Shown here in pieces: positions 558-45,400 of a stretch of DNA of 64,000 nt. The position numbers and the translations under genes were made by a program. The notes under the pieces were generated by a model. The model was not told the DNA's origin and did no database searches. It saw nothing but the letters and a program-made list of their open reading frames with translations. Source of the DNA: Candidatus Parcubacteria bacterium (GTDB lineage: Bacteria; Patescibacteriota; Minisyncoccia; Phycocordibacterales; CAIZLB01). Position 1 is the stretch's first letter. Each line of letters opens with the position of its first letter. The stretch lies in the NCBI GenBank assembly GCA_043760135.1, contig JAYUPL010000007.1, forward strand, positions 106 to 64,105, in the 5' to 3' direction.

Positions 558-3431
558 ATGCAACCAAATAATTTTGAACAACTAGATAATGAAAACAAAC
601 AGTCACATAATTCTGAACCGTCTTCAGATAATAAAAATTTTACATCTCTTGAAGAAGAACTTGAATATTTACGAGGAGAAGTAAAAAAGAATCAAGAAAA
701 AAAATCAGAACAATTTGAACAAGATCAGATTATCACTCAAGAAATAAAAACATATCATCAAGAAACAGGTAGAGATTTATTACATGAATCATATATTCAA
801 CCTGAAAACAAAAGCGCCGAGATAGTTCTTAACCTTGCCCCTGAAAACCATGATAAAAATATGGAAGAGTATTGGACATTGATGAATAAGAACGGTATTT
901 ATAACACTTTAAACATAATAAAAAACACAGGTAATCCTCACCTAGAAGATGATTTCCATAGATTTTTAGTTGAGTATATAAAGGCTGGCTTGAAGATTCA
1001 AAATTTGAAAGAAAATGATCCAATTGATAGAAGTATTAAACAAACCCTATATCAAGTATCATTACCTGATTTTCAAGAAAAAGAGGGAGCACAAAAACCA
1101 TTAAAAGAACTTTTGTCAGTGATGGAGCAGTTTTATCTTGGTATGAGCTCTATTGCAGAAGCTGGTAAAAAATTTGCAGATAGTAGAAATAACATGACTA
1201 TAGAGCTTGCTATAGCTGAAGGAAGTGAAGAATTTATTTTCTATGTATCAGTGCCAAATGATAAAAATGATTTATTTGAAAAGCATATACTGTCAGTATT
1301 TCCAGAAGCTAAGATAGAAATAGAACACAATGACTATAATATATTTGATGAAGATGGTGTATCGCTGGCATCAGTTGCATCATTTACAAAACAAGATATC
1401 TATCCAATCAAAACATATGAAGAATTTGATGCTGACCCTATTAATGTTATTTTAAACTCATTATCAAAAATACAAAAAAATGGAGAAGGTGCGTGTATTC
1501 AGATTGTATTTAATAATGTTGGTGACTATTATCACAAGCTTTATAGAACAGCACTAGACAATATTCTCAAAGGAGAATCTCTTAAAAAAACAACGGATAT
1601 TCGACATACTATCTGGGGTCAATTTTCAAAAGTTGCTGGTGAAATGGGAAAAGAAATAGTGGATGGTACATTGTCTTATGATGATAGTAAAAAAGATGAG
1701 ACAAAAGAAAAATATATAGATCAGATTGCAGTTGAGCAAATCAAACATAAAATATCATCTCCGATAATAGAAACAAACATAAGACTTATTGCCTCCGCTA
1801 AAGATCGCATGCGCGCAGAAAATATTTTGTCTGATCTTGAGTCTTCGTTTAATCAGTTTACTAATGCTCTTGGAAATAGTTTTAAATGGGGTAGAGTAAA
1901 GGATAATCAACTCAAAGATTTATTTTATAAATTCACATTCCGTCTTTTTGACAAAGATCAAATATTACCAGTTTCTATTAAAGAAATTGCCACAGTGATG
2001 CATTTTCCAATGACTACCCAGTCAAACTTTTCTCCTCAGTTGAAACAATCAACTGCAGCAACAGCACCAGCACCACTGGATATTCCTCGAAAAGGTGATG
2101 GGGTTCTTATCGGTAAAAATGTTCATAGAAATGTTGAGCAAGATATTTATATGTCAGCTGAAGATAGGGCACGTCACATGTATGTGATTGGACAGACTGG
2201 TGTAGGTAAGTCGAGTATTTTAAAAAACCTTATCATACAAGATATTAAAAATGGTGAGGGTGTCTGTTTTATAGACCCTCATGGAAATGATGTGCAGGAT
2301 ATATTATCTCAAATTCCAAAAGAGAGATATGATGATGTGATTTATTTTGATCCAAGTCATACTGATCGTCCGATGGCTTTGAACATGCTCGAATACGATA
2401 CTTCAAATCCAGAACAAAAAACGTTTGTGGTAAACGAGCTGTTTAGTATTTTCCAAAAACTTTACGGCGCCAACCCAGAATCTATGGGACCGATGTTTGA
2501 GCAATATTTTAGAAATGCCACCATGCTCGTTATGGAGGATCCTGAATCAGGTTGTACCATGCTTGATATCTCTCGTGTTATGGCAGTGAAAAGTTTCCGT
2601 GATATGAAGATCGCTCATTGTAAAAACCCAATTGTAAAGCAATTCTGGACTGAGATTGCTGAGAAAACTTCGGGAGAATCAGGTTTAGCAAACATGATTC
2701 CATACATCACCTCAAAATTTGATGTCTTTTCATCAAACGAAATTATGCGCCCTATTATTGCTCAGGAAAAATCTTCTTTTAATTTCCGAGAAATAATGGA
2801 TACTAAAAAAATCTTACTGGTCAATTTGTCAAAAGGAAGATTGGGGGATATTAACGCCAACCTTATCGGTTTGATTATTGTTGGTAAAATTTTGATGGCC
2901 GCCTTATCGAGAGTAGATTCTTTTGGAAAAGATATGAATCCGTTTTATCTATATATTGATGAATTCCAAAACATAACTACTCCATCAATATCAACTATTT
3001 TGTCTGAAGCTAGAAAATATAAATTATCACTCACTATGGCGCATCAATTCATCGCACAGCTTGATGACAAAATAAAAGCTTCTGTGTTTGGAAACGTGGG
3101 GAATATGGTTGTCTACAGGACGGGTGCAGAAGATGCAGAATTTTTACAAAAACAATTCGAACCAGTTTTTGTGGCTAAAGATATTATGAATATTGATAAC
3201 TTCAATGCGTATATAAAGATGCTTTCACATGGTAAACCAACAAAACCATTTAATGTACGTATTATGCCTCAGGAGAAGGGAAATATGGCCATCGTGGACT
3301 CGTTGAAGGAGTTGTCATACCTCAAGTATGGAAAGGATAAAGACACTGTTATAGAAGAAATTGATGCGAAGTTTGCGAGTGATAAACCAAAACCAAAGCC
3401 TGTGGCAGATTTGAGTGCGTTTGGGTTGTAG
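558..3431 (+). CDS. VirD4/TraG/TraD-family type IV coupling-protein-like ATPase with ~480-aa hydrophilic N-terminal region of unknown function
   Basis: C-terminal half has Walker A 'GQTGVGKSS', 'FIDPHGND', Walker B 'LYIDEFQN' and 'TMAHQFIAQL' motifs typical of TrwB/TraG/VirD4; no N-terminal TM helices seen. Confidence 0.6.
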   Translation: MQPNNFEQLDNENKQSHNSEPSSDNKNFTSLEEELEYLRGEVKKNQEKKSEQFEQDQIITQEIKTYHQETGRDLLHESYIQPENKSAEIVLNLAPENHDKNMEEYWTLMNKNGIYNTLNIIKNTGNPHLEDDFHRFLVEYIKAGLKIQNLKENDPIDRSIKQTLYQVSLPDFQEKEGAQKPLKELLSVMEQFYLGMSSIAEAGKKFADSRNNMTIELAIAEGSEEFIFYVSVPNDKNDLFEKHILSVFPEAKIEIEHNDYNIFDEDGVSLASVASFTKQDIYPIKTYEEFDADPINVILNSLSKIQKNGEGACIQIVFNNVGDYYHKLYRTALDNILKGESLKKTTDIRHTIWGQFSKVAGEMGKEIVDGTLSYDDSKKDETKEKYIDQIAVEQIKHKISSPIIETNIRLIASAKDRMRAENILSDLESSFNQFTNALGNSFKWGRVKDNQLKDLFYKFTFRLFDKDQILPVSIKEIATVMHFPMTTQSNFSPQLKQSTAATAPAPLDIPRKGDGVLIGKNVHRNVEQDIYMSAEDRARHMYVIGQTGVGKSSILKNLIIQDIKNGEGVCFIDPHGNDVQDILSQIPKERYDDVIYFDPSHTDRPMALNMLEYDTSNPEQKTFVVNELFSIFQKLYGANPESMGPMFEQYFRNATMLVMEDPESGCTMLDISRVMAVKSFRDMKIAHCKNPIVKQFWTEIAEKTSGESGLANMIPYITSKFDVFSSNEIMRPIIAQEKSSFNFREIMDTKKILLVNLSKGRLGDINANLIGLIIVGKILMAALSRVDSFGKDMNPFYLYIDEFQNITTPSISTILSEARKYKLSLTMAHQFIAQLDDKIKASVFGNVGNMVVYRTGAEDAEFLQKQFEPVFVAKDIMNIDNFNAYIKMLSHGKPTKPFNVRIMPQEKGNMAIVDSLKELSYLKYGKDKDTVIEEIDAKFASDKPKPKPVADLSAFGL

Positions 3432-5143: not shown

Positions 5144-5434
5144 ATGCAAAATAACAATATCCAATTTGATGAATTCAAAGTCAAATCAAGAAGTATTTTA
5201 GGTCAGTCAGAATCTCCAGCTATGATACAGTCGATGGTAAAATATGGTATAGTAAAAAATGAAAAACAAGCTTTTGGGTTTATGGTTACTTTAATAATTG
5301 TCTTTTTAGCAGCTGCTGGTTTTATTATTTATTATAATTTTTTTAAGCAACCAACAATTCCGCCGATTACACCAGAAGCTCAATCATTTTATCAACAACA
5401 AATGGATGCCTCTACTAAGTCAAATAGTAAATAA
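5144..5434 (+). CDS. small membrane protein, upstream partner of the pilin gene (cassette copy 1)
   Basis: One C-terminal TM helix; homologous to ORF 22399-22767 (shared 'GIVKNEKQA'). Confidence 0.45.
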   Translation: MQNNNIQFDEFKVKSRSILGQSESPAMIQSMVKYGIVKNEKQAFGFMVTLIIVFLAAAGFIIYYNFFKQPTIPPITPEAQSFYQQQMDASTKSNSK

Positions 5435-5450
5435 TACAATTCACAACTCT

Positions 5451-6050
5451 ATGTTTAAAAAAATAAAAAATAAAAAAGGTTTTACTTTAATAGAATTAAT
5501 GGTGGTTATATCAATAATTGGATTGCTTTCAAGTATTGTACTAGCCTCACTTAAAGATGCAAGAGATAAAGCAGCGAATCAAAAATTTAAAGCAGAAATC
5601 ATGGAACTAGTTAAAGCATTAGAACTTTATAAAGCAGATAATGGTGAATATCCTTATGAAAAACAAGCTTCAGCTGTTAGTACATCAAACTATTCGGCAG
5701 GAATGTTAAATAATCAAACTGAAACTGTTACAACCGGGGATGCTTTATTATCTACCTTATTAATACCTAAATATATTAAAAAACTACCAACCCCACCAAA
5801 TAATTCTTTTTCTGGACCATCTTGGACTTACCGTACAAATTTTAAAAGATCAGGTTCAGGATTGTTTGTAAACTCGTGTTTTGATGATGGTGCACTTGAT
5901 AGGGATGATAGTCGTGTTCCTAAATATGTTGTTTATGTTGGACCTAATAATCCTATTGTAAATCAATTTAACGAATGGTCTTTTCTGAGAGCGTGGTATA
6001 GTACATCAGGTTATACTGACCTTACAGATCGTTGCTTCTCTCTTAAATAA
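5451..6050 (+). CDS. type IV pilin-like protein (class III N-terminal signal)
   Basis: 'KGFTLIELMVVISIIGLL' prepilin cleavage/methylation motif; start taken at the internal Met before KKGFTLIE. Confidence 0.65.
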   Translation: MFKKIKNKKGFTLIELMVVISIIGLLSSIVLASLKDARDKAANQKFKAEIMELVKALELYKADNGEYPYEKQASAVSTSNYSAGMLNNQTETVTTGDALLSTLLIPKYIKKLPTPPNNSFSGPSWTYRTNFKRSGSGLFVNSCFDDGALDRDDSRVPKYVVYVGPNNPIVNQFNEWSFLRAWYSTSGYTDLTDRCFSLK

Positions 6051-10696: not shown

Positions 10697-13000
10697 ATGA
10701 AAAAATATTTTGATCAGTGGAATAATAAAAAGAAATATATAGATAAAACTCCTAAAGATTTGATATTTAATGAAGGAGAGATTTGGTGGTCACATTTCGG
10801 TATAAATGTAGGCGAAGAGGCTTATGGGAAAGGTGGGTATTTTAGGAGACCTGTAGTTGTCTTAAAAAAGATATCACAAAACTCTTGCATAGTTGTGCCG
10901 ACAACCACAAAAATAAAAGAAGGTGAAAATTACTTCAAATTCACAACAAATGATCTAGAAAGAAGAGCTATGCTCTATCAGATAAAGTTTATTTCTGCAA
11001 AAAGATTGTATGTGAGAGAATCTGAGATGGAAAAAGAAGATTTCCTGAAATTAAAAAAATCCCTAGCAAACTTGCTAGAAATCTCTTCATGGTCACCGAG
11101 CGGACAAAAAGGACAATGCTCGGATCAGTGGGTTTCCCCTGGTATGAATCTATTTTATCAAACTCAAAATAATTGTCAAATTTCCAAGTTTTCACGTTCT
11201 GGAATCTGTGCTAAACTTCCATTTATGCAAACATCATTAGAACATAAAAGACATTCCTTGGCGCATGTATTAGCTGGAGCCATATTAAAATTATATCCAG
11301 ATGCTTTGATGACGATTGGTCCTGCTGTTGAAAATGGTTTTTATTATGATATTGATTTTCCAAGCGGATCACCAAAAGAGGAAGACTTTGAGAAAATTCA
11401 AAATGAGATGAAAAATGTTTTAAAAGCCTGGTCAACTTCAGAGCAGAGTTTTGTTCAACAAAAAGTTTCTAAAGAAGAGGCAGAAACTATTTTCAAAAAT
11501 AATTCATACAAGTTGGAACTGATCCAAGGTGTTGTTGATCGAGGTGAAGAAATAACTTTGTATGTTTCTGGGAAAGGTACAGAGTACGAATTTACTGATC
11601 TTTGTCGTGGGGGACATGTTGAGAACACAAAAGAGATTGATGAAGGTTCTTTTGCACTAGATAAGATTGCTGGAGCGTACTGGAGAGGTGATGAGAAAAA
11701 TAAGATGCTTGTGCGAATCTATGGACTTGCATTCGAAACAAAAGAAGAGTTGGATTTATTTATTCATAATAGAGAAGAGGCGAAGAAGAGGGATCATAGA
11801 AAATTAGGAAAGGAATTGAAGCTGTTTACTATTTCAGATTTAGTTGGTTCTGGGCTTCCTTTGTTTCAACCAAAGGGTGCCGTCTTGAGAGTGGAGCTAG
11901 AAAAATACTTGTGGTCAATGCATAAAGATAAGGGTTATCAAAGAGTTTGGACGCCACATCTAGCTAAAGCACAACTGTATGAAATATCAGGTCATGGACA
12001 ACATTACCTTGATGATATGTTTGCAGTGCATGGAGGAACTTCAAAAGAAGATTTTTATTTGAAGCCAATGAATTGTCCTCATCACTACCAATTATTTTTG
12101 GATAATCAATTCTCATATAGGGATATGCCAATCAAATATTTTGAACCGGCAACAATCTATCGTGATGAAAAAACAGGACAATTAGCAGGTCTAACTCGTG
12201 TTCGTTCAATCACTCAAGATGATGGGCATTTATTTTGTCGTTCAACTCAAATCAAGGAAGAGGTAAATATTATTGTAGACATTATCAAGCAATTCTATAC
12301 AACTATGAATATGATTGATGGGTATTGGGTACGACTTTCAACTCGAGGTGATGATAAGGATGTGTATCTTGGGTCTGATGAAGTGTGGGAGACTGCTGAA
12401 AGTGCGTTGAAGGATATTTGTAACGAAAATAATTTACCATACAAAGAGGGTAAAAATGAGGCAGCTTTTTATGGTCCAAAACTGGACTTTATGTTTAAGG
12501 ATGCGATTGGAAGAGAATGGCAATTGGCAACAATCCAGCTTGATTTCAATGCACCAGAAAGATTCAATCTTTCTTTTGTAAATGAAAAAGGTGAAGATGA
12601 AAGACCTGTGGTTATTCACCGTGCCATCTCTGGATCAATAGAAAGATTCTTAGGTGTTGCTATTGAGCACTTTGCTGGAGCGTTTCCGCTATGGCTTTCA
12701 CCTGTTCAATTAAAAATTGTTCCAATCGGTGAAAGACAAATAGACTTTGCACATGATTTATTTAAGAAAATAATGAAGACTGATATAAGAGTTGAGATCG
12801 ATCAAAGTAGTGAAGGACTTGGTAAAAAAGTTCGTGCATCTAAAGTTGAGAAAATTCCATACCTAGTTGTGGTAGGAGATAAAGAAATGGAATCAAATAC
12901 ATTTTCTCTTGAAGGAAGAAATGATGAGAAGATTACAGGGTTAAGTTATGATGACATGGTTAAGTTTTTACAAGATAAAATAGACAGTAAGGCTCTATAA
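10697..13000 (+). CDS. thrS: threonyl-tRNA synthetase carrying an in-frame N-terminal MazF/PemK-like domain (no TGS domain)
   Basis: Residues ~180-767 match ThrRS (editing-domain 'HSLAHVLAGAI...IGPAVENGFYYDIDFP', 'DHRKLGKEL', 'KPMNCPHHYQLF', 'RVRSITQDDGHLFC'). Residues ~1-130 match PemK/MazF ('GEIWWSHFGINVGEEAYGKGGYFRRPVVVLK') and are a paralogue of ORF 45002-45400. No stop codon lies between the two parts. Confidence 0.8.
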   Translation: MKKYFDQWNNKKKYIDKTPKDLIFNEGEIWWSHFGINVGEEAYGKGGYFRRPVVVLKKISQNSCIVVPTTTKIKEGENYFKFTTNDLERRAMLYQIKFISAKRLYVRESEMEKEDFLKLKKSLANLLEISSWSPSGQKGQCSDQWVSPGMNLFYQTQNNCQISKFSRSGICAKLPFMQTSLEHKRHSLAHVLAGAILKLYPDALMTIGPAVENGFYYDIDFPSGSPKEEDFEKIQNEMKNVLKAWSTSEQSFVQQKVSKEEAETIFKNNSYKLELIQGVVDRGEEITLYVSGKGTEYEFTDLCRGGHVENTKEIDEGSFALDKIAGAYWRGDEKNKMLVRIYGLAFETKEELDLFIHNREEAKKRDHRKLGKELKLFTISDLVGSGLPLFQPKGAVLRVELEKYLWSMHKDKGYQRVWTPHLAKAQLYEISGHGQHYLDDMFAVHGGTSKEDFYLKPMNCPHHYQLFLDNQFSYRDMPIKYFEPATIYRDEKTGQLAGLTRVRSITQDDGHLFCRSTQIKEEVNIIVDIIKQFYTTMNMIDGYWVRLSTRGDDKDVYLGSDEVWETAESALKDICNENNLPYKEGKNEAAFYGPKLDFMFKDAIGREWQLATIQLDFNAPERFNLSFVNEKGEDERPVVIHRAISGSIERFLGVAIEHFAGAFPLWLSPVQLKIVPIGERQIDFAHDLFKKIMKTDIRVEIDQSSEGLGKKVRASKVEKIPYLVVVGDKEMESNTFSLEGRNDEKITGLSYDDMVKFLQDKIDSKAL

Positions 13001-17359: not shown

Positions 17360-18301
17360 ATGACAATACTCATCCTTATCATCATCTTCCTCCTCGGAAC
17401 AATCATCGGAAGTTTCCTTAACGTAGTAATATTTCGCCTCAACACAAATCTGAGTATTAGCCGTGGCCGCTCAAAGTGCTTTTCATGCGGTAGGGAACTG
17501 GAACCTAAAGATTTGATCCCTGTATTTTCATTTTTAATGTTCAAAGGACGATGTCGAACTTGTAAGTCTAAAATTTCTTGGCAATATCCACTTGTAGAAT
17601 TGGCAACTGGTATTATGTTTGTTCTCGTTACATATTCTTATTTTTTCAGTAATACAATTTTCATTGGAAACAATATTTTTAATAAAGGATTGGTGTTACA
17701 GGCATTCACACAGATGGCATATATAAAATATGTTTTCTATATAATGGATTTAGCTGTTGTATCACTTCTTATGTGTATCTTTGTGTATGATTTCAGACAC
17801 AAAATTATCCCTGATAAACTAGTATATTCTGGTGCGGTTTTGATGTTTACAAAAGCCCTTATCTCGATATTTATTTTTAAGGCGAGTGCGATGACTGTTG
17901 TGTGGGTGTTGTTAGCTGGACCAATAGTTGCTATACCTTTTGCATTGTTTTGGGTGGTGTCAGGTGGAAGATGGATGGGGTTGGGAGATGCAAAGCTTGC
18001 TCTTATTGTGGGTTGGGGATTAGGTTTGGGGTATGGATATACTGCGCTCATGTATTCATTTTGGATAGGAGCTATTGTTATTATTGGTCTTATGCTAACC
18101 AGAGAGATGCTCGATGCATTTTCAACTCATAATAATGCACTTGGTTTTAAAATAAAATTTTTACATAATAAAAAGCTAGAATATTTTAGAAACAAGCTAC
18201 CATCTTACAAATTAAGGTCAGAAATACCATTCGGACCCTTTATGATTGTGGCTTTTTATATGATCTATTTCCTAGGCAGGAATCTTCTGTGGTGGATATA
18301 A
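17360..18301 (+). CDS. pilD: prepilin peptidase (A24 family, PilD-like)
   Basis: N-terminal Cys tetrad 'CFSCG...CRTC', TM-rich, 'GLGDAKLALIVGWGLG' motif; TATAAT 9 nt upstream of ATG. Confidence 0.8.
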   Translation: MTILILIIIFLLGTIIGSFLNVVIFRLNTNLSISRGRSKCFSCGRELEPKDLIPVFSFLMFKGRCRTCKSKISWQYPLVELATGIMFVLVTYSYFFSNTIFIGNNIFNKGLVLQAFTQMAYIKYVFYIMDLAVVSLLMCIFVYDFRHKIIPDKLVYSGAVLMFTKALISIFIFKASAMTVVWVLLAGPIVAIPFALFWVVSGGRWMGLGDAKLALIVGWGLGLGYGYTALMYSFWIGAIVIIGLMLTREMLDAFSTHNNALGFKIKFLHNKKLEYFRNKLPSYKLRSEIPFGPFMIVAFYMIYFLGRNLLWWI

Positions 18302-18635
18302 AGCCTTTGGTTTTCACGTTGGTTTATAAGGGGTTTTTTGACTTTTCCTAAATTTGCTTGTCCTTTATGAACATATTTGAATAATCCCCATATAATCGCT
18401 TGACTTTGTTTATGTTTCGTATATAATAGACACCCATACGGAATAGAAATATAACTCTCGAATCCTTGATGGATTCAAGAAAAATTTCTAAAGAAATATA
18501 CTTTGAAAATAGAATAAAGATATACATACATCACAATAGATATGTAAGAACATTGTATTGATTTTGTACAATGAGCAAGAATTAATTTTAAAATTAATCA
18601 AATCCTTTCTTTTGTTCTGTTTGAGTTTTTTATTT

Positions 18636-20160
<1,525 letters not shown>

Positions 20161-20532
20161 TATGTCACCTGATTTATCAGGTTGCATCAGATTTATAACG
20201 GTCGTTACTGATCTTTTAAGCAATTAAAATTTCAACAGTTCTTATATGCTGTCGTTCATATAAGCGAAGAAGTTCGTAAAACTTTGACATATCGGAAAGA
20301 CGGTGACTCAAACAGAACAAAAGAATTTGTTTGATTAGGTTTAGGTTAATTCAAGCGTTTCTATATTGTGATTTTGTAAAAATTATGTAATACTCAGTAC
20401 ATGATATTTTTTCCGTATGGACGGAATGGAATATTGTTTCGCTTAACTTCGCTTATGAGTTGAGCGAACGAGTCGACCCTGCCGGGAAGCTTTGCTTCCG
20501 AGGACTTCTCGACGAGAGAACAAAACAAATAA

Positions 20533-20608
20533 GCGCGCGTAGCTCAGTTGGTAGAGCGCTCGACTGATACTCGAAAGGTCCTTGGTTCAACTCCAAGCGC
20601 GCGCACCA
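20533..20608 (+). tRNA. tRNA-Ile (anticodon GAT) in the 16S-downstream spacer
   Basis: Acceptor GCGCGCG/CGCGCGC, D-arm TAGCTCAGTTGGTAGAGC, anticodon loop CTGATAC, CCA encoded. Confidence 0.8.
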
Positions 20609-21434: not shown

Positions 21435-22430
21435 ATGAACATGCTTAATCCGAAAATTTTTTCACCTATTGCAGAAATAGAACAAACTCCAATCCGAAAA
21501 GGTTTCGGTGAAGGTTTGCTTTTGGCTGGTGAGAAAAATAAAAACATAGTCGGACTGTGTGCGGACCTAACCGAATCTACTCAGATGAATCTTTTCAGAG
21601 ATCGTTTCCCGGACCGTTTTATCGAGATAGGGGTAGCTGAGCAAAACCTTGCCTCTGTGGCCTCTGGTATGGCTGCTATGGGCAAGATTCCTGCCATGAC
21701 ATCATATGCCATGTTCTCACCTGGACGTAACTGGGAGCAGATTAGAACGACTATTTGTTATAACGATAGGAAAGTGATCATCGCTGGTTCGCATGCTGGT
21801 ATATCAGTTGGACCTGATGGTGGAACACATCAGGCTATTGAGGATTTGGCTTTAACTCGGATTATACCAAACATGACGGTTATCTCACCGTGCGATGTTA
21901 TTGAGGCACGTAAGGCGACTATAGCGGCATTTGAAAATACCCAAAAAACACCAGTATATATCCGCCTTGCTCGCGAAAAAACACCAATCATAACAACCGA
22001 AGAAGCGCCATTTGTGATAGGGAAGGCAAATGTGTTGTATGAGTCAAGTTTTGATGTCAATATTGACATACGATTTGACACTCTCATATGTGCAACAGGT
22101 GCATTGGTATACAATGCACTCTTAGCTGCAAAAGAATTGGAATCAAAACATGGTCAAAAAGTCGCGGTTATTAATTTTCATACAATAAAACCACTCGACA
22201 CAGAAACACTTTTTTCATATGTTGAAAAATCAGAAAAAATAGTTACAGTCGAAGAGCATCAGATTGCTGGAGGATTTGGGTCTGCAATATGTGAGGTGGT
22301 GTCAGAAAAATATGCCAAGATTATTCATCGTATCGGAGTAAAAGATCAGTTCGGACAATCAGGAACGCCGGCCGAGCTTATCAAGTTTTATAAGATGGAT
22401 GTTGCGGATATTGTTAAAGTTAGTATATAA
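21435..22430 (+). CDS. transketolase C-terminal subunit (pyrimidine-binding plus C-terminal domains)
   Basis: 'GVAEQNLASVASGMAAMGKIP', 'GSHAGISVGPDGGTHQAIEDLA'; 331 aa is the size of the C-terminal half of split transketolases; no N-terminal subunit gene is adjacent. Confidence 0.75.
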   Translation: MNMLNPKIFSPIAEIEQTPIRKGFGEGLLLAGEKNKNIVGLCADLTESTQMNLFRDRFPDRFIEIGVAEQNLASVASGMAAMGKIPAMTSYAMFSPGRNWEQIRTTICYNDRKVIIAGSHAGISVGPDGGTHQAIEDLALTRIIPNMTVISPCDVIEARKATIAAFENTQKTPVYIRLAREKTPIITTEEAPFVIGKANVLYESSFDVNIDIRFDTLICATGALVYNALLAAKELESKHGQKVAVINFHTIKPLDTETLFSYVEKSEKIVTVEEHQIAGGFGSAICEVVSEKYAKIIHRIGVKDQFGQSGTPAELIKFYKMDVADIVKVSI

Positions 22431-22770: not shown

Positions 22771-23400
22771 ATGAAAAAAATATATAAAAAAGGGTTTACT
22801 CTTATAGAACTATTAGTTGTTATATCTATCATTTCACTTTTGTCTAGTGTTGTGCTTGCGTCGGTGTATACAGGTAGAGAAAAGGCTGTTTTGACTAAAA
22901 CTGTGGCTGAGATGAAGTCGCTGCAGACGGCTGTGGAGTTGTATAGAAATCAGTTTGGGGTTTATCCGGGGGTTACTAATATATTATATTCAGATGCCAG
23001 AACAAGTCCTACCCCTGCAAATTGGAGTACTTGGAACTATATGTCCCCAGCAACAGTTTCATTAAATGATTTGCAAAATACGTATTTGATTTCAAATAAT
23101 TTGCTAGCAAAACCTGTTCTTGCGCCAACATATCTCGAATCTTGTGATACTGGGTGTTATAATAAAGGTTATGAATTGTTATATGTTATACCAAATCCTA
23201 CAACATATAGTTTTGTATTCAGTTGTGGAGGTGTTCCTGTGAATAACTATATAATATTTTTATTAGCCAATACTAAAAAATTAAACTTACCTCTAGCTTC
23301 TGTTTCACCTTTTCCTGGTGCCACTTGGAATGCTGGTTCAGTAAGTGCAGGTACAGGTGGTCCAAATACCCCCCCCTACACCTACTGCCTATCCATGTAA
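22771..23400 (+). CDS. type IV pilin-like protein (class III N-terminal signal)
   Basis: 'MKKIYKKGFTLIELLVVISIISLL'. Confidence 0.65.
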   Translation: MKKIYKKGFTLIELLVVISIISLLSSVVLASVYTGREKAVLTKTVAEMKSLQTAVELYRNQFGVYPGVTNILYSDARTSPTPANWSTWNYMSPATVSLNDLQNTYLISNNLLAKPVLAPTYLESCDTGCYNKGYELLYVIPNPTTYSFVFSCGGVPVNNYIIFLLANTKKLNLPLASVSPFPGATWNAGSVSAGTGGPNTPPYTYCLSM

Positions 23401-25314: not shown

Positions 25315-26670
25315 ATGAATTTTAGACTTAGACACAGACTTGCGATTTTTAGTATTGCTACAATTTTAATAACTTACCTGTCAATGTCTGTTGTTTTTGC
25401 AGCAGAACTTGATTGTAATCTCCCTGAAAATAGAGAGACTTGTTTGGCTGAGTTAGCTAAAACCGAAAATGAGATATCTGACTTAAATAAACAGCTTTCC
25501 GGACTTAAAAATGAAGGAGCCTCTATCGCTCGTGACAAAAAGATCCTTGAAAACCAAGCTAAACAGGCCAAACTGAAGATAAAAACTCATGAACTTTCTA
25601 TAGCTAAACTCGGGAAAGATATTAAAACAAAAGAATCTACAATCACTGGCTTACAAGAGAGAATTAATAAAAACAAAATTGGTTTAAATGAGGTTATTCA
25701 AAATGCCTACGAAGTTGATAATATATCAGCAGTTGAAATATTTTTATCAAATCAAAATATATCTGATTTTTTTCGTGATCTTGATGCCTATGTTTTTATA
25801 AACACTAAGATTAGAGAATCTATAGGAATTATTAGTAAAGACAAGTCAGAAGAAGAGGTTGAAAAAAAACAACTCGACGTAACACGATCTAAAGAATACG
25901 ATTCTAAGTATGCTGTTGAGGCTGAAAAAATGAAGATTGAGAAAATAGATGCTGAAAAAGCCCGTCTTTTGAGTTTGAACAAGAAAGAGCAAACTTCTTA
26001 CGGTACCATCATCGTTGATAAACAAAAGAAAGCTACTCAGATTCGAAATGCACTTTTCGCACTACGTGACTCTGCTTCAATCAAGTTCGAAGATGCGGTA
26101 GCTTTTGCAAAATCAGCAAGTAAAAACACAGGAGTGAGAGCATCATTTATTTTGGCGATACTGCAACAAGAATCTAACTTAGGGAAAAACGTTGGCTCAT
26201 GTTATATGACAAATGTCGATACCGGAGCTGGGGTTAAAATATCATCTGGAAATGCAGTAAATAATGTTATGAAGCCATCACGTGATGTTCAACCGTTTTT
26301 GAATATTACAAAATCTTTGGGTAAAGATTGGGCGACTACTCGAGTGTCATGTCCGTTTACAACAGGGTATGGAGGAGCCATGGGTCCTGCTCAGTTTATA
26401 CCATCTACTTGGCAGTTGTTTGCAGCTCGTATTTCTAAGACTAAAGGAGGTGCTGTTGCCAACCCTTGGGCTGCTGCTGATGCTTTTATGGCCTCGTCTA
26501 TGTACTTATCTGATCTCGGTGCATCCTCTGGATCAGCTTCAGCTGAGCGAAATGCAGCTTGTCGTTACTATTCAGGACGTGCTTGTGGATCTGCTGACAA
26601 CACTTTCTACGGGGATCAGGTTATGAAGAGGGCTGTAAAATTGCAGGCAGATATTGATTTAATCCAGTAA
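25315..26670 (+). CDS. secreted coiled-coil protein with C-terminal lytic-transglycosylase (SLT)-like domain
   Basis: Signal/TM N-terminus, ~250 aa coiled coil, then 'ILQQESNLG' (catalytic ES) and 'GAMGPAQFIPSTW' (GLMQ-like) motifs. Confidence 0.4.
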   Translation: MNFRLRHRLAIFSIATILITYLSMSVVFAAELDCNLPENRETCLAELAKTENEISDLNKQLSGLKNEGASIARDKKILENQAKQAKLKIKTHELSIAKLGKDIKTKESTITGLQERINKNKIGLNEVIQNAYEVDNISAVEIFLSNQNISDFFRDLDAYVFINTKIRESIGIISKDKSEEEVEKKQLDVTRSKEYDSKYAVEAEKMKIEKIDAEKARLLSLNKKEQTSYGTIIVDKQKKATQIRNALFALRDSASIKFEDAVAFAKSASKNTGVRASFILAILQQESNLGKNVGSCYMTNVDTGAGVKISSGNAVNNVMKPSRDVQPFLNITKSLGKDWATTRVSCPFTTGYGGAMGPAQFIPSTWQLFAARISKTKGGAVANPWAAADAFMASSMYLSDLGASSGSASAERNAACRYYSGRACGSADNTFYGDQVMKRAVKLQADIDLIQ

Positions 26671-28150: not shown

Positions 28151-30676
28151 ATGAAAATATTTAATAATCTTAAGTGTATAGTGTTGGTATTTTTGATTAT
28201 GTTTTCTCATGTAGTTTTCGCCGCCAACCCACCTTATCCTTTTCTACCATCAGACAATGTACAAGATCCAAACTGTACACCGCTGGACTCTAACTGTTAT
28301 GTTCTTTTAACATCTTTTCAGAATGAAACAGTGACAGGACTCGACTATGCAACTTCGACTGGAATACTTTCTTTAACTTCAGGCTACAATATACCACTTA
28401 CTGCGTCGACTACTGCGTGGAATAGTGCTATCGGAGCACTAGGAGGAAGTGCACTTTTGCAAAATGGTAATTCATTTGGTACAACGCTCACACTTGGAAC
28501 AAATGACAATCAAGCTTTGAGTTTTGAGACAAATGGTATTAACAGACTCACTATCGACACATCAGGAAATATCACTGCTACAGGAACCATCACAGCGAGT
28601 TCATTTTTTGGTAATGGCTCAAACTTGACTGGTATATTTTCAACATCAACGACAAGAGGTGTTTTCTCGGCGTCTGGTCCTATTTCGTATTCAACTTCGA
28701 CTGGAAATTTTTTAATAACTCAAGCTTCGTCAACTTCAAGTGGATATCTTTCTTCAGCTGACTTTACAACTTTCCAAGCCAAAGAAGACGTCATCACTGC
28801 GTCCACCACGGCAACATACTTCCGAGGTGACAAAACCTTCAGTACTCTCGACACCTCGGCTGTTCCTGAGAATGGAAATCTCTACTTCACAAATGCTCGT
28901 GTGAATTCAATCTTGTCAGCAACAACTTCACTTCCAAACATCACCACACTCTCAGGACTCATTTCTGCAACAAACCTAGGTTCATTGGGTACGACTACAA
29001 TCGGAGTGTGGAATGCCACTCCGATTGGAGACTCATACATCACAAAGACTGGAAACTGGACAGGAATATTCGATGGACAAGAAGGAACATATTATTTGGA
29101 CAGAGCAAATCACACAGGCACACAGTTGGCTTCAACTATTTTGGATTTCGGAACTACTACAAGAAACTTACTTTCATCCACTGCAACAGGACTAACATAT
29201 TCGACCTCAACTGGAATATTTTCTTTAACTTCAGGTTACAATATACCTTTGACCGCCTCAACTACTGCATGGAATGCAAAAGTCTCAAGTCAATGGGTGA
29301 CGAGTGGTGTAAATATATATTATACAGGTGTGGCTGTTGGTATTGGGACAACAACACCAAGCAATAAATTTGTTGTAGTAGGAACGTCAACAGTTATTGG
29401 AAATTTTAACCTCAATGGTTATGTGTTGCAGGGTTCGTCAAATGGTTCACTGTTTGGGAATACAGTTAGTAATGGTATTTATGATTCCAACTTCCTTGGT
29501 GCCTATGCGGGAAATGGTGCTACAAGTACCAGTTACTCCAACTTCCTTGGTGCCTCTGCGGGACATAGTGCTACAAATGCCAGCTACTCCAACTTCCTTG
29601 GTTACTATGCGGGATATAGTGCTACAAATGCCAACCAATCCAACTTTCTTGGTTACGGTACGGGATATAGTGCTACAAATGCCAACAACTCCAACTTCCT
29701 TGGTTACTATGCGGGATATAGTGCTACAAATGCAGCTTCCTCCATATTCTTTGGGAAGAATTCTGGTTATTCTGACACTGTGAATAACACTTCTGGAAAC
29801 AAATACTCAATACTTATAGGAAACTACACCTCAACTGGTGGTTTTTCCAACTCGATATCAATAGGACAAGGTGTGGCCAACTCAGAAATTGATCAACTAA
29901 ACATTGGTCGTATTATCTATGCTACCAAAATAGGCTCATCAACCTCATCTATCTCTTCACCTTATGCCTCAGCTTCTGTCGGTATAGGAACATCTACTCC
30001 AGCCGATAAGCTTCAAGTCTATGGTGACATACGTGTAGGAACCACAGGAACAAACGGTTGTATCAAAGATTTTGGAGGAACAGGTATCACAGGAGTATGT
30101 TCATCAGATGAAAGATTGAAAACAAATGTTGTAGATTTATCAGATAATTATCTTGATAAAATGGCTAAACTTAGAGTAATATCATATAACTGGAATGATA
30201 CTGCTAAAGATTTAAACAAAGTCAATACGACTGCTACAAACTACGGACTATTGGCGCAAAATGTAGAAGAAAATTTTCCAGAATTAGTCACAATAGATTC
30301 CAATGGATATAAGCAAGTTAATTATTCACGATTACCATTATATTTAATAAAATCAATACAAGAATTGTCAAAAAAGTTTTTGTCATTTGCTGATTCTGTT
30401 ACAACTAAAGAATTAAAAACCAATAAGCTATGTGTTGATGATATTTGTGTTACAAAAGATCAGTTTAAGATGATGTTACAAAACAGTAATGTATCTCCAG
30501 TTATATATCAACAATCAGTCTCAATTCCTGCCCCAGTCCAAAATCCAGAACCTGTTGTTGAGCAAGCAATAACAACTGAAGTTGTGGCCGAAATTGCTGT
30601 ACCGATACCTGTGGTTGAGACTGCTCCTGAACCTATTGTTGTACCAGTTGTGACAGAAAATCAGTTAGTACAATAG
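28151..30676 (+). CDS. phage-tail-fibre-like secreted surface protein with C-terminal intramolecular-chaperone (peptidase S74) domain
   Basis: Signal peptide, S/T/G/N-rich repeats, five tandem 'SNFLGYYAGYSATNAN' repeats; C-terminal 'SDERLKTNVVDLSDNYLDKMAKLRVISYNWND...YGLLAQNVEENFPELVTIDSNGYKQVNYSRLPLYLIKSIQEL' matches S74 autochaperone domains; Pro-rich tail. Confidence 0.6.
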   Translation: MKIFNNLKCIVLVFLIMFSHVVFAANPPYPFLPSDNVQDPNCTPLDSNCYVLLTSFQNETVTGLDYATSTGILSLTSGYNIPLTASTTAWNSAIGALGGSALLQNGNSFGTTLTLGTNDNQALSFETNGINRLTIDTSGNITATGTITASSFFGNGSNLTGIFSTSTTRGVFSASGPISYSTSTGNFLITQASSTSSGYLSSADFTTFQAKEDVITASTTATYFRGDKTFSTLDTSAVPENGNLYFTNARVNSILSATTSLPNITTLSGLISATNLGSLGTTTIGVWNATPIGDSYITKTGNWTGIFDGQEGTYYLDRANHTGTQLASTILDFGTTTRNLLSSTATGLTYSTSTGIFSLTSGYNIPLTASTTAWNAKVSSQWVTSGVNIYYTGVAVGIGTTTPSNKFVVVGTSTVIGNFNLNGYVLQGSSNGSLFGNTVSNGIYDSNFLGAYAGNGATSTSYSNFLGASAGHSATNASYSNFLGYYAGYSATNANQSNFLGYGTGYSATNANNSNFLGYYAGYSATNAASSIFFGKNSGYSDTVNNTSGNKYSILIGNYTSTGGFSNSISIGQGVANSEIDQLNIGRIIYATKIGSSTSSISSPYASASVGIGTSTPADKLQVYGDIRVGTTGTNGCIKDFGGTGITGVCSSDERLKTNVVDLSDNYLDKMAKLRVISYNWNDTAKDLNKVNTTATNYGLLAQNVEENFPELVTIDSNGYKQVNYSRLPLYLIKSIQELSKKFLSFADSVTTKELKTNKLCVDDICVTKDQFKMMLQNSNVSPVIYQQSVSIPAPVQNPEPVVEQAITTEVVAEIAVPIPVVETAPEPIVVPVVTENQLVQ
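29485..29760 (+). repeat. five tandem 51-bp in-frame coding repeats (17-aa units)
   Basis: 'TCCAACTTCCTTGGTTACTATGCGGGATATAGTGCTACAAATGCCAAC...' repeated with minor variation. Confidence 0.75.
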
Positions 30677-32275: not shown

Positions 32276-32839
32276 ATGTTTGAACCTTATTCATCAACAA
32301 GAAAATCAACGACAGCTTCAAATAATTTTGAGGCCAATACCGTTGAGAAGATGAGAATGGAAAATTTGAAGAAAGAAAAAGAACGAAGAGAGAAGGAAAG
32401 ATATAAGATGGAATACGATGCAAAGAAAAGAGAATTTGACCGGCACAGTGCTGACAAAGCTCGTTTTGAGTTGGAAAAAAGAAGATTGGAAATAGAGCTT
32501 AAAAAATATGAGACTGACACACTATCGACTTTACGAGATGAAAAGAAATACGATATTGAAAAAATGCATCTGACTGACGAAGAAAGTGTAATCAATAAAA
32601 AAATTCAAACTATGGAGGTTGAATTACAACAATTAAAAAACAAAGCTCAAAAGTTGAAGGTGGATAAAGAATCATCAACCAGAAAAGATAGAGAATTATT
32701 GTCTGACATTACTAAGAAGAATGCCTATATTCAATCAATCAATTTGAAATTAGCAGCAGCAGAAAGAAATTTGGCTGAAGCAAATAGACAGGTAACACAT
32801 TTAAATACAGATTTAATAAATTTAAAGAAATATGCGTAA
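32276..32839 (+). CDS. K/E/R-rich coiled-coil hypothetical protein
   Basis: ORF; heptad-like charged repeats. Confidence 0.4.
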   Translation: MFEPYSSTRKSTTASNNFEANTVEKMRMENLKKEKERREKERYKMEYDAKKREFDRHSADKARFELEKRRLEIELKKYETDTLSTLRDEKKYDIEKMHLTDEESVINKKIQTMEVELQQLKNKAQKLKVDKESSTRKDRELLSDITKKNAYIQSINLKLAAAERNLAEANRQVTHLNTDLINLKKYA

Positions 32840-45001: not shown

Positions 45002-45400
45002 ATGAATAACAAAAACTATGATGAATGGAATATATTAAAGAAAAGAATAAATAAATTATATAAAACCAAACATCCAAAAATAAGAGAAGTTTGGTGGGTA
45101 AATATCGGTTTGAATATAGGCTCTGAAATATATGGAAAGGGTTCAAAATATTTAAGACCTGTATTGGTGTTAAAGGTAAATGATGAAAGTTTTTTAGGTA
45201 TACCATTATCATCAAAATTAAGGAAAAGCAAACAAAGATTCATTTTGAAAACAAATGATCAGAAGCTTCATTCCTTGGTTTTTAATCAAATTAAGATTTT
45301 GGACAACAGGAGATTGTTGAGTAAGAAGTATATTATTTCAAAAAATAAATTTAGGAAAATAATCCGTAAATTTAAAAATACGATAACCGTCAATGGTTAG
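45002..45400 (+). CDS. MazF/PemK-family toxin-like protein
   Basis: 'REVWWVNIGLNIGSEIYGKGSKYLRPVLVLK' matches the MazF/PemK core; paralogue of the ThrRS N-terminal domain. Confidence 0.65.
   Translation: MNNKNYDEWNILKKRINKLYKTKHPKIREVWWVNIGLNIGSEIYGKGSKYLRPVLVLKVNDESFLGIPLSSKLRKSKQRFILKTNDQKLHSLVFNQIKILDNRRLLSKKYIISKNKFRKIIRKFKNTITVNG

What the first reader, a model, noticed from the sequence alone, without database searches (positions are those of the whole stretch)
28151..30676. Chromosomal phage-tail-fibre-like surface protein with C-terminal S74 intramolecular-chaperone domain and tandem 17-aa repeats
The 841-aa secreted protein is rich in S/T/G/N. It has two ~90-bp internal dispersed repeats (28340-28430 and 29190-29280), five tandem 51-bp repeats encoding 'SNFLGYYAGYSATNAN', then a C-terminal block 'SDERLKTNVVDLSDNYLDKMAKLRVISYNWND...YGLLAQNVEENFPELV...GYKQVNYSRLPLYLIKSIQEL'. 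This matches the auto-cleaving intramolecular chaperone domain of phage tail spikes/fibres and endosialidases, followed by a Pro-rich tail. It sits between prfA and rpsB with no other phage genes, so it looks like a domesticated fibre. It may be a trimeric surface adhesin, for example for attachment to a host or partner cell in an episymbiotic lifestyle.
Basis: partly seen in the sequence, partly recalled or inferred. Interest (0 to 1): 0.6.

Follow-up and report, generated by a model that had tools for sequence, protein, structure and literature searches.

The report
Secreted phage-fibre-like surface protein in Patescibacteria
A tiny, probably host-dependent bacterium carries in its own chromosome a secreted protein built from phage tail-fibre parts with a self-cleaving folding domain, one of a large uncharacterised family that most resembles the prey-recognition fibres of the predator Bdellovibrio and is a plausible host-attachment fibre.

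Summary
ORF 28151-30676 (+) encodes 841 aa with a signal peptide, a T/S/G/N-rich shaft, a 90-nt dispersed repeat, a 5 x 51-bp in-frame tandem array, a full-length Peptidase_S74 domain (55.8 bits against a cutoff of 22) with an invariant S652-D-E-R-L-K657 motif, and a Pro/Val/Glu-rich tail. No ORF of 120 aa or more in the 64-kb window hits a phage structural family. The window carries 16S rRNA, ribosomal proteins, translation factors and type IV pilus genes.

Two related Parcubacteria MAGs keep a fibre gene directly upstream of rpsB-tsf. Their flanking proteins are 81-97% identical to the window's, but the fibre is only 58-68% identical.

The family is mosaic. It has a conserved ~28-aa N-terminal Cys-loop motif right after the signal peptide, a variable middle (17-aa repeats in 5 to over 30 copies), and a conserved tip plus S74. 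The N-terminal motif finds about 1,400 protein clusters; 48 of 57 sampled carry S74. It is absent from 80 related viral loci.

The best solved-structure matches for the shaft are Bdellovibrio MAT adhesion fibres. The likely mechanism is Sec export, S74-templated trimerisation, self-cleavage at S652, and an N-terminally held surface fibre. The adhesin role is inferred, not shown. I rate it a new variant of a known kind.

The parts
28151..28222 (+). Signal peptide, aa 1-24 (MKIFNNLKCIVLVFLIMFSHVVFA). The predicted signal-peptidase I site is VFA|ANP.
   Evidence: It is the only segment with transmembrane-like hydrophobicity. The ..FA|A(N/S)P junction is conserved in homologues.
28223..28306 (+). 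N1 motif, aa 25-52: ANPPYPFLPSDNVQDPNCTPLDSNCYVL. It is a conserved Cys-loop (C42, C49) at the mature N-terminus and the proposed cell-proximal anchoring module.
   Evidence: It is invariant or nearly so in close homologues and present in 64 of 120 homologues. A 34-position profile finds 1,400 cluster representatives, almost all matching at residues 20-65. It is absent from 1,652 ORFs of 80 related viral loci.
28334..28423 (+). Dispersed repeat, copy 1. It encodes TGLDYATSTGILSLTSGYNIPLTASTTAWN, a phage-fibre shaft module.
   Evidence: The repeat pair is 81% identical. The same module occurs at 69-77% identity in viral contigs L057 and L079.
28496..28585 (+). GTNDNQALSFETNGINRLTIDTSGNI module, aa 116-145. 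It is homologous to beta-helix modules of Bdellovibrio MAT fibres.
   Evidence: It matches Bd3182 (8OJN) at E=0.0015 with the single sequence and at 3.8e-11 with the family profile. It is 60-73% identical to viral contigs L048, L050, L055, L063 and L083. It is the only confident part of the N-terminal AF2 model.
29186..29275 (+). Dispersed repeat, copy 2 (TGLTYSTSTGIFSLTSGYNIPLTASTTAWN).
29486..29791 (+). In-frame tandem array of 51-bp / 17-aa units (SNFLGxxAGxSATNAxx). Five clear copies are followed by a degenerate one.
   Evidence: Tandem Repeats Finder gives 5.0 copies at 87%; the protein register is. A simple motif count (S[NIT]F[LIFVM]G) gives 6 here and up to 36 in homologues. No Pfam or PDB sequence match was found for this repeat.
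29948..30103 (+). Conserved distal tip, aa 600-651. It holds VGIGTSTPADKLQVYGDIRVGTTGTNGC...GVCS with the Cys pair C637/C650, and would become the C-terminus of the mature fibre.
   Evidence: It is nearly invariant in close homologues and 69-77% identical in the syntenic orthologues. The VGIGTxxPxxxL motif aligns with the Bd3182/Bd2133 loops.
30104..30121 (+). S652-D-E-R-L-K657: the predicted autoproteolytic Ser-Lys dyad and cleavage site (S651|S652).
   Evidence: It is invariant in A1. It aligns with residue 1 (SDERHK) of the released GA-1 chaperone 3GUD. The C-[ST]-S-D-E-R-L-K-T motif is present in over 70 homologues.
30104..30406 (+). S74 intramolecular chaperone domain, aa 652-752, including the long helix at aa 725-752.
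   Evidence: Pfam. The AF2 model has pLDDT above 90 across this stretch. Foldseek hits 7DC3, 3GW6 and 3GUD.
30425..30484 (+). Family-specific add-on: a Cys hairpin (KLCVDDICVTK, C761/C766) plus a short helix (DQFKMMLQN).
   Evidence: The AF2 secondary structure is confident here. C761 and C766 are invariant in A1. The module is found in 54 of 120 homologues.
30494..30673 (+). Pro/Val/Glu-rich C-terminal tail, aa 782-841. It is predicted to be extended or disordered and has no transmembrane segment or LPXTG motif.
   Evidence: Composition and hydropathy are. It is coil at pLDDT ~60-75 in AF2. Its composition is conserved but its sequence is not: 37-40% identity in the syntenic orthologues.

Best explanation
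The gene encodes a cellular, Sec-exported, phage-derived fibre of a Patescibacterium (Parcubacteria/Paceibacteria lineage).

Proposed steps, each marked shown or inferred:

1. The 24-aa signal peptide directs export and is cut at VFA|ANP (inferred from sequence and conservation).
2. Outside the cytoplasm, three chains are brought together by the C-terminal S74 intramolecular chaperone. This templates folding of the upstream interdigitated beta-helical shaft from the C-terminal end. This is the established behaviour of S74 domains in endosialidase, the T5 fibre and Bdellovibrio Bd3182; here only the domain, motif and fold are shown.
3. The Ser652-Lys657 dyad cuts the chain before S652. This releases a 190-aa fragment made of the chaperone, a Cys hairpin and the Pro-rich tail (inferred).
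4. A 627-aa mature fibre (aa 25-651) remains. Its conserved N-terminal Cys-loop motif holds it on the cell surface. Its conserved tip and mosaic shaft project outward and bind a surface structure of a host or partner cell (inferred by analogy with Bdellovibrio MAT fibres and from the conservation pattern).
5. Module exchange, in-frame changes in 17-aa repeat number and fast sequence divergence at a fixed chromosomal site diversify length and specificity. The pattern is shown; its purpose is inferred.
For: **Domain and fold:** Pfam S74 at 55.8 bits; invariant S-D-E-R-L-K; alignment to the first residue of the released GA-1 chaperone. The AF2 model has pLDDT above 90 over aa 652-781, and Foldseek finds MyRF ICA, endoNF CIMCD and GA-1 CIMCD.

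**Secretion:** the only hydrophobic segment is N-terminal, the FA|A site is conserved, and three conserved close Cys pairs fit an extracytoplasmic protein.

**Cellular, not viral:** all 64 kb is housekeeping. Homologues lie in three different housekeeping contexts. The fibre-rpsB-tsf-iPGM arrangement is kept in two Parcubacteria MAGs.

**Fast evolution:** the fibre is 58-68% identical against 81-97% for the flanking proteins.

**Mosaic family:** modules are distributed independently.

**N1 motif as a cellular hallmark:** 1,400 cluster representatives match, positioned right after the signal peptide. 48 of 57 sampled carry S74 and 14 of 57 carry YadA_head adhesin repeats. There are zero occurrences in related viral loci.

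**Homology to experimentally characterised surface fibres:** the family profile hits Bd3182 (3.8e-11), Bd2133 (1.4e-5), Bd2439 (7.9e-5) and Bd1334 (2.5e-3). Caulton et al. 2024 (PMC10769870) showed that these MAT proteins are surface-located and that Bd3182 self-cleaves at its S74 serine.
Against: - There is no direct evidence here for expression, trimerisation, cleavage, surface location or binding.
- How the fibre would stay on the cell after cleavage is unknown. There is no LPXTG, lipobox or second transmembrane segment. The N-terminal model was of too low confidence (pLDDT 58) to show a domain.
- The distal tip is among the more conserved parts, and the most variable parts are the middle and the discarded tail. 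This is unlike many phage receptor-binding proteins, whose tips vary most.
- The role of the Pro-rich tail is unexplained.
- The organism's episymbiotic lifestyle is assumed from its lineage, not shown.
Confidence: 0.6

Rival explanations
1. It is a released (not anchored) secreted product. It could be a free fibre or a tailspike-like depolymerase that binds or degrades a polysaccharide of a host cell, a biofilm matrix or the cell's own envelope, rather than a cell-attached adhesin.
For: S74 domains also mature endosialidases and capsule depolymerases (established knowledge; the description of PF13884 is 'Chaperone of endosialidase'). No recognised anchoring signal is present. One N1-bearing relative carries a GDSL lipase domain.
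Against: No catalytic domain is detected in aa 25-651 by Pfam or NCBIfam. The shaft is made of short fibre-type repeats homologous to MAT fibre modules. The strict conservation of the mature N-terminus in about 1,400 clusters is more easily explained by a docking function.
Confidence: 0.15
2. It is a structural or protective surface-coat component. Examples are a fibrous outer layer, an antigenically variable shield, or a decoy that competes with phages for receptors. In this reading it has no role in host recognition.
For: Its T/S/G/N-rich repetitive composition, variable repeat number and rapid divergence are also typical of variable surface coats. At least two paralogues were found in each of three relatives' genomes.
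Against: The closest characterised relatives are adhesion fibres. 14 of 57 N1-bearing relatives carry YadA-head adhesin repeats. A coat protein would not need a single-turnover folding chaperone typical of receptor-binding fibres, although this is a weak argument.
Confidence: 0.15
3. It is an ordinary phage, prophage-remnant or tailocin/eCIS tail fibre that happens to lie in the chromosome and has no cellular function.
For: PHROG tail-fibre families hit the C-terminal part. NCBI names homologues 'tail fiber domain-containing protein'. Shaft modules are shared with viral contigs.
Against: It has a signal peptide, whereas virion and tailocin fibres assemble in the cytoplasm. There is no capsid, tail, baseplate, sheath, integrase or terminase gene in 64 kb. 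Its position next to rpsB is conserved in related genomes. The ORF is intact and its motifs are conserved. The N1 motif is absent from the viral relatives.
Confidence: 0.05
4. It works like MyRF. The C-terminal fragment (chaperone plus Pro-rich tail) is the retained, envelope-associated part. Self-cleavage serves to release the N-terminal trimer as a regulated, shed effector.
For: The best fold match is the MyRF ICA domain. The family-specific Cys hairpin and the long Pro-rich tail resemble wall-spanning spacers of monoderm surface proteins.
Against: There is no transmembrane segment, LPXTG or other anchor after the chaperone; maximum hydropathy in the tail is 1.25. The tail sequence is poorly conserved, whereas the N-terminus is the conserved end.
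Confidence: 0.05

Closest known systems
Bdellovibrio bacteriovorus MAT (mosaic adhesive trimer) fibres, S74 subgroup, e.g. Bd3182 (Caulton et al. 2024, PMC10769870; PDB 8OJN/8ONB/8ONC)
   Same: Both are chromosomally encoded and have a signal peptide, a conserved N-terminal end, a long mosaic fibre, and a C-terminal S74 domain with SDxxxK. Shaft modules are homologous by sequence (GTND..LSFETN..R.TI..G.VGIGTTTP..L.V.G): the profile hits Bd3182 at E=3.8e-11, and also Bd2133, Bd2439 and Bd1334. Both occur as several paralogues per genome, in bacteria that live on other bacteria.
   Different: The host lineage is Patescibacteria, which is not among the lineages listed for MATs (Table S3 of the paper). 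The conserved N-terminal element here is a ~28-aa Cys-loop motif, not a recognisable ~130-aa beta-rich domain; equivalence could not be tested. This family adds a Cys hairpin and a Pro-rich tail after the chaperone. It also has an invariant Cys pair just before the cleavage site and 17-aa SNFLG repeats. No experimental data exist for it.
Phage tail fibres and tailspikes with a C-terminal intramolecular chaperone domain (K1F endosialidase 3GW6, GA-1 gp12 3GUD, T5 pb1 4UW8)
   Same: The S74 fold and the Ser-Lys motif are the same. Fibre shaft modules are shared with viral contigs. The chaperone sits at the extreme C-terminal side of the mature fibre.
   Different: This protein has a signal peptide and no phage context. 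S74 identity to viral versions is only 28-38%, against 50-76% among the cellular relatives. The N-terminal virion-attachment part is replaced by the N1 motif, which is absent from the viral loci.
MyRF / Ndt80-type membrane transcription factors with an ICA domain (PDB 7DC3)
   Same: This is the best structural match of the C-terminal domain (Foldseek E=5e-6, probability 1.0). The Ser/Lys motif position is the same.
   Different: MyRF is a eukaryotic ER membrane protein with a transmembrane segment after the ICA domain, and it releases a DNA-binding trimer. Nothing else is shared.
Trimeric autotransporter adhesins (YadA/BadA type)
   Same: Both are repetitive trimeric adhesin-like proteins. 14 of 57 relatives that share the N1 motif contain bona fide YadA_head repeats, and JGI labels some homologues 'trimeric autotransporter adhesin'.
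   Different: This protein has no YadA_head hit even at E<=10 and no YadA anchor barrel. Trimerisation is expected to come from S74, not from an outer-membrane anchor.

Membership tests
Peptidase_S74 / C-terminal intramolecular chaperone domain (CIMCD) | Significant match to the family profile above the curated threshold | tested here: met
   PF13884 at E=5.8e-15, 55.8 bits against a cutoff of 22, full profile 1-58, aa 652-714.
Peptidase_S74 / C-terminal intramolecular chaperone domain (CIMCD) | Catalytic Ser-Lys dyad in an S-D-x-x-x-K motif at the start of the domain | tested here: met
   S652-D-E-R-L-K657 is invariant in 13 close homologues and conserved in over 70. It aligns with SDERHK at residue 1 of the released GA-1 chaperone 3GUD and with the equivalent MyRF site.
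Peptidase_S74 / C-terminal intramolecular chaperone domain (CIMCD) | Characteristic fold: small beta/alpha part followed by a long helix | tested here: met
   The AF2 model has pLDDT above 90 for aa 652-781. Foldseek PDB top hits are 7DC3 (5e-6), 3GW6 (5e-3) and 3GUD (1e-2); 4UW8 is only weak at 0.4.
Peptidase_S74 / C-terminal intramolecular chaperone domain (CIMCD) | Trimerisation-dependent autoproteolysis that releases the domain | not testable with these tools
   This needs expression of wild type and S652A/K657A. No multimer prediction was available.
MAT (mosaic adhesive trimer) superfamily, S74 subgroup (Caulton et al. 2024) | N-terminal signal peptide | tested here: met
   There is a hydrophobic N-terminus with a conserved VFA|A site. 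No dedicated predictor was available.
MAT (mosaic adhesive trimer) superfamily, S74 subgroup (Caulton et al. 2024) | [quoted passage not shown] | tested here: inconclusive
   Only about 28 aa (N1) are conserved family-wide. The AF2 model of aa 25-200 has mean pLDDT 57.9. The AFDB library needed to compare with Bdellovibrio N-domains was unavailable, and PDB holds no MAT N-domain.
MAT (mosaic adhesive trimer) superfamily, S74 subgroup (Caulton et al. 2024) | Beta-helical fibre modules with the VG(I/V)GTxxPxxxL-type capping loops | tested here: met
   The family profile hits Bd3182 at 3.8e-11, Bd2133 at 1.4e-5, Bd2439 at 7.9e-5 and Bd1334 at 2.5e-3. The motifs are at aa 396 and 610.
MAT (mosaic adhesive trimer) superfamily, S74 subgroup (Caulton et al. 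2024) | C-terminal S74 with SDxxxK | tested here: met
MAT (mosaic adhesive trimer) superfamily, S74 subgroup (Caulton et al. 2024) | Surface localisation and binding of prey/host epitopes | not testable with these tools
   This is experimental only.
Phage virion tail fibre (prophage-encoded) | Encoded among phage structural / morphogenesis genes | tested here: not met
   No ORF of 120 aa or more in the 64-kb window hits a phage structural family in Pfam. Homologues lie in housekeeping contexts.
Phage virion tail fibre (prophage-encoded) | Cytoplasmic assembly (no secretion signal) and an N-terminal virion-attachment domain | tested here: not met
   A signal peptide is present. The N1 motif is not found in 1,652 ORFs of 80 related viral loci.
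Trimeric autotransporter adhesin | YadA_head / Hep_Hag repeats and a C-terminal YadA anchor barrel | tested here: not met
   Pfam reports only PF13884 at E<=1 for the whole protein and nothing at E<=10 for the repeat region. There is no PDB sequence match for the repeats.

The most novel reading that the evidence does not exclude
The ~28-aa Cys-loop motif at the mature N-terminus (consensus PPxGGYxPGxTLDPxCxPGDxxCxV; here ANPPYPFLPSDNVQDPNCTPLDSNCYV) is a lineage-wide docking adaptor. Through it, Patescibacteria would display a large, rapidly recombining repertoire of phage-derived, S74-matured receptor-binding fibres on their surface. These fibres would then be principal determinants of which host cell an episymbiont can attach to, a cellular counterpart of phage host-range determinants. 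It would have arisen by swapping the virion-attachment end for a signal peptide plus the adaptor.
Probability: 0.3. Interest if true: 0.8.

Novelty: new variant of a known kind. Interest (0 to 1): 0.58.

Why it matters
How ultrasmall Patescibacteria recognise and bind their hosts is largely unknown. The abstract of PMC12206443 says so explicitly. Work so far points to type IV pili and unnamed 'adhesins' in Saccharibacteria (PMC10633639 and PMC11665869).

This gene belongs to a large, sequence-definable family: about 1,400 clusters at 50% identity carry the N-terminal motif, and most of those sampled carry S74. Its architecture is that of a receptor-binding fibre, and it is homologous to the only experimentally characterised cellular S74 fibres, those of Bdellovibrio.

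It offers concrete candidates for host-specificity determinants and a simple biochemical read-out (self-cleavage at S652). It also gives a bioinformatic handle, the N1 motif, for cataloguing such fibres and relating their variation to host range. It is a clear example of phage receptor-binding hardware recruited for cellular use.

Tried and rejected
- **Exact look-up of the window protein's contig:** nothing was on record. Cluster look-ups gave no organism names for window proteins. The lineage was therefore inferred from syntenic Parcubacteria MAG contigs.
- **The search for homologous proteins with aa 1-145:** it returned only 8 short fragments and was uninformative.
- **AF2 of aa 25-200:** mean pLDDT was 57.9. 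I judged it unusable and ran no fold search on it.
- **AFDB Foldseek library:** it was unavailable, so there was no structural comparison with Bdellovibrio MAT N-domains and no taxonomic view of structural neighbours.
- **YadA-head or other known repeat identity for the 17-aa SNFLG repeat:** no Pfam hit at E<=10 and no PDB sequence hit. Rejected as a membership claim.
- **NCBIfam:** no model matches.
- **Paralogues in the window:** none.
- **Promoter/terminator scan around the gene:** promoter-like sites were not above shuffled expectation and no terminator was found. Uninformative.
- **Literature:** no paper in the library links S74 or the intramolecular chaperone with Patescibacteria. Absence from this library is not proof of absence.
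- **ORFs nested in other frames of the repeat region (29397-29783 (+), 29447-29638 (-)):** I treated these as by-products of the repeats, not genes.
Full report
**1. The observation**

- Pfam gives one hit: Peptidase_S74 (PF13884), E=5.8e-15, 55.8 bits against a curated cutoff of 22. It covers the whole 58-position profile at aa 652-714.
- Tandem Repeats Finder reports a 51-bp period with 5.0 copies and 87% matches at 29486-29737. At protein level this is a 17-aa register (SNFLGxxAGxSATNAxx) from aa 446, fading out near aa 547.
- A 90-nt dispersed repeat lies at 28334-28423 and 29186-29275 with 81% identity.
- The mature part is T/S/G/N-rich. The last 60 aa are V 25%, P 17% and E 12%.
- Upstream are L25, a secreted SLT-domain protein, L31 and RF-1. 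Downstream are S2 and EF-Ts.

The description is confirmed in every particular.

**2. Chromosomal, not prophage**

The window holds a complete 16S rRNA, seven tRNAs, and many housekeeping genes:
- translation: IF-2, ThrRS, BipA, LepA
- other core functions: ClpB, RNase J, enolase, iPGM, a transketolase-like protein
- envelope and secretion: a prepilin peptidase, two pilin-like proteins, a T4SS coupling-protein-like ATPase

Every ORF of 120 aa or more was scanned with Pfam. None hits a capsid, portal, terminase, tail, baseplate, sheath or integrase family. There is no paralogue of the fibre in the window.

Three close homologues (P0005, P0013, P0010) lie in three different housekeeping neighbourhoods, again without phage genes.

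Two contigs from 'Candidatus Parcubacteria' MAGs (L006, L007) carry a fibre gene followed by rpsB, tsf, a 187-aa protein and iPGM. Those flanking proteins are 81-97% identical to the window's. The fibre itself is only 58-68% identical over the part that was assembled. The locus is therefore inherited vertically in this lineage, and the fibre evolves much faster than its neighbours. This synteny also places the window in the Parcubacteria/Paceibacteria part of Patescibacteria.

**3. Anatomy of the protein**

- **Signal peptide.** Residues 1-24 form the only transmembrane-like hydrophobic segment. They end in VFA|ANP, and homologues conserve the ..FA|A junction.
- **N1 motif.** The mature N-terminus, ANPPYPFLPSDNVQDPNCTPLDSNCYV, is nearly invariant in close relatives. 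It is recognisable as PPxGGYxPGxTLDPxCxPGDxxCxV in distant ones.
- **Shaft modules shared with viral contigs at high local identity.** These are the TGLDY(A/S)TSTG.LSLTSGY.IP..ASTT.WN unit (69-77%), the LQNGNSFGTTLTLGTNDNQALSFETNG..R.TI..GN unit (60-73%) and a YFRGDKTF..LDTS.. unit (65%).
- **The rest of the chain.** The 17-aa array follows, then a conserved block and the tip ..VGIGTSTPADKLQVYGDIRVGTTGTNGC..GVCS. Next come S652-D-E-R-L-K657 and the S74 domain.
- **Cysteines.** The six mature cysteines form three close pairs (42/49, 637/650, 761/766), all conserved. This fits an extracytoplasmic protein.

**4. The S74 domain**

- S652, D653 and K657 are invariant in 13 close and 48 broader homologues.
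- The released chaperone of the GA-1 neck appendage (3GUD) begins exactly at the aligned serine, SDERHK.
- An AF2 model of aa 592-841, built with a 48-sequence alignment, has pLDDT above 90 for aa 652-781. It shows a long helix at aa 725-752, then a Cys hairpin and a short helix, then a lower-confidence coil tail (pLDDT ~60-75).
- Its best PDB matches are the MyRF ICA domain (E=5e-6, probability 1.0), the endosialidase CIMCD 3GW6 and GA-1 3GUD. T5 pb1 is only a weak match.

Profile, motif and fold criteria are met. Autoproteolysis itself cannot be tested here.

**5. A mosaic family**

The whole-protein search returned 610 relatives. Named ones are 'tail fiber domain-containing protein' from Paceibacterota, Pacebacteria or Patescibacteria MAGs.

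Mapping eleven segments of the query onto the best 120 hits shows that modules are distributed independently:

| Module | Hits out of 120 |
|---|---|
| 17-aa repeat | 99 |
| S74 | 76 |
| Post-S74 Cys hairpin | 54 |
| Tip | 27 |
| N1 (phmmer) | 29 |
| N1 (looser pattern) | 64 |

A simple motif count (S[NIT]F[LIFVM]G) gives 6 in the window protein and up to 36 in homologues. Hits without a signal peptide mostly lack S74 and look like true phage fibres that share only the repeat.

A scan of one genome per species found 17 loci:
- 15 are in Patescibacteria MAGs; one is in a Terriglobia MAG and one in a Pseudohongiellaceae MAG.
- Three genomes have two loci each.
- Ten loci are truncated by a contig end inside the gene.

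**6. The N-terminal motif marks the cellular version**

A 34-position profile of the motif, searched against 1.84 billion cluster representatives, found 1,400 proteins at E<=0.001 and 60 at E<=1e-10. The match almost always lies at residues 20-65, directly after a signal peptide.

Of 57 such representatives of 450-1,200 aa, 48 carry Peptidase_S74 and 14 carry YadA_head adhesin repeats. A few carry LVIVD, Ig-like or GDSL-lipase domains. The one with an organism name is from Candidatus Paceibacterota.

The motif is absent from all 1,652 ORFs of the 80 viral loci that share fibre or S74 modules. Neither Pfam nor NCBIfam models it.

My reading is that a phage fibre lost its virion-attachment end and gained a signal peptide plus this motif. 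That is inference.

**7. Closest characterised relatives**

A profile of the close family, searched against PDB sequences, gives these hits:

| PDB entry | Protein | E-value |
|---|---|---|
| 8OJN | Bdellovibrio Bd3182 | 3.8e-11 |
| 8OND | Bd2133 | 1.4e-5 |
| 8OL4 | Bd2439 | 7.9e-5 |
| 7DC3 | MyRF | 2.4e-4 |
| 8OML | Bd1334 | 2.5e-3 |
| 6F45 | phage long-tail-fibre tip | 5e-3 |

Caulton et al. 2024 (PMC10769870) define the MAT family as follows: a signal peptide, a conserved N-terminal domain of ~130 aa, a long trimeric fibre, and either S74 (13 members, SDxxxK) or other tips. They showed surface location, prey-glycan binding for one member, and S74 self-cleavage of Bd3182 that is blocked by S782A. 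Their list of MAT-like proteins in other lineages covers Oligoflexia, Micavibrio, Uabimicrobium, Omnitrophica and others, but not Patescibacteria.

The window protein meets the signal-peptide, fibre-module and S74 criteria. The N-terminal-domain criterion could not be decided. I therefore describe it as working like an S74-type MAT fibre and as a probable distant member or sister family, not as a proven member.

**8. Mechanism and its weak points**

The proposed mechanism is Sec export, S74-templated trimerisation, cleavage before S652, release of a 190-aa fragment, and a 627-aa fibre held by its N-terminus with the tip outward. Four things remain unexplained:
- what the N1 motif binds
- why the tip is more conserved than the middle
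- what the Cys hairpin and Pro-rich tail do
- whether the mature fibre is retained or shed

Rivals are a shed fibre or depolymerase, a variable surface coat, a phage remnant, and a MyRF-like release mechanism. They are listed with their evidence in the rival explanations. The phage-remnant reading is the one the data most clearly exclude.

**9. Verdict**

It is not categorically new. S74 fibres in non-phage bacteria are known from Bdellovibrio, and NCBI's annotation already labels these proteins as tail-fibre-domain proteins.

Three things appear to be undescribed in the searched literature:
- the scale of the Patescibacterial family
- its defining N-terminal motif
- its C-terminal add-ons

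Because host recognition in Patescibacteria is an open question, this family is a worthwhile experimental target. Interest is 0.58.

Noticed in passing
window 10697-13000 (+): The 767-aa ThrRS ORF (tRNA_SAD, class II core, anticodon-binding) has an N-terminal extension whose aa 26-126 hit the PemK/MazF toxin family (E=6e-8, 33 bits, cutoff 23). The ThrRS of a relative (L012) is only about 581 aa and aligns without this part. It is either a MazF-ThrRS fusion or an upstream toxin gene read through in frame.
   Followed up: partly
window 45002-45400 (+): A second, stand-alone PemK/MazF-like toxin ORF of 132 aa (E=9e-8).
   Followed up: no
window 558-3431 (+), 5406-6050 (+), 17360-18301 (+), 22771-23400 (+): Cell-surface machinery typical of Patescibacteria: a T4SS coupling-protein-like ATPase (TraG-D_C, TrwB), two type IV pilin-like proteins (N_methyl motif) and a prepilin peptidase (A24).
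   Followed up: no
window 18629-20608: The 16S rRNA is followed by tRNA-Ile but not by a 23S rRNA; a transketolase-like gene starts at 21435. The rRNA genes are therefore unlinked.
   Followed up: no
window 25315-26670 (+): A 451-aa protein with a signal peptide, a long coiled-coil region and a C-terminal SLT_2 lytic transglycosylase domain lies 1.5 kb upstream of the fibre gene. It is another possible cell-wall-acting secreted factor.
   Followed up: no
L011 2-11926 (Candidatus Kaiserbacteria MAG JALWJR010000063.1): A giant open frame of at least 3,975 aa ends in an S74 module 50% identical to the window's C-terminal module. This would be a very long fibre of the same kind.
   Followed up: no
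L004, L006, L007, L009, L012, L013, L015, L016, L017, L019: Ten of the 17 related genome loci are cut by a contig end inside the fibre gene. This suggests that the repeats and/or strain-level variation in these genes break metagenome assemblies. Copy numbers per genome are therefore likely underestimated.
   Followed up: partly
window 32276-32839 (+): A 187-aa Lys/Glu-rich, coiled-coil-like ORF with no Pfam hit lies directly after tRNA-Thr. It is conserved at 81% identity at the same position in both related MAGs (L006, L007).
   Followed up: no
window 29397-29783 (+) and 29447-29638 (-): Two ORFs of 128 and 63 aa lie in other frames inside the 51-bp repeat array. Their own sequences are repetitive, so they are most likely by-products of the repeat and not genes.
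   Followed up: no
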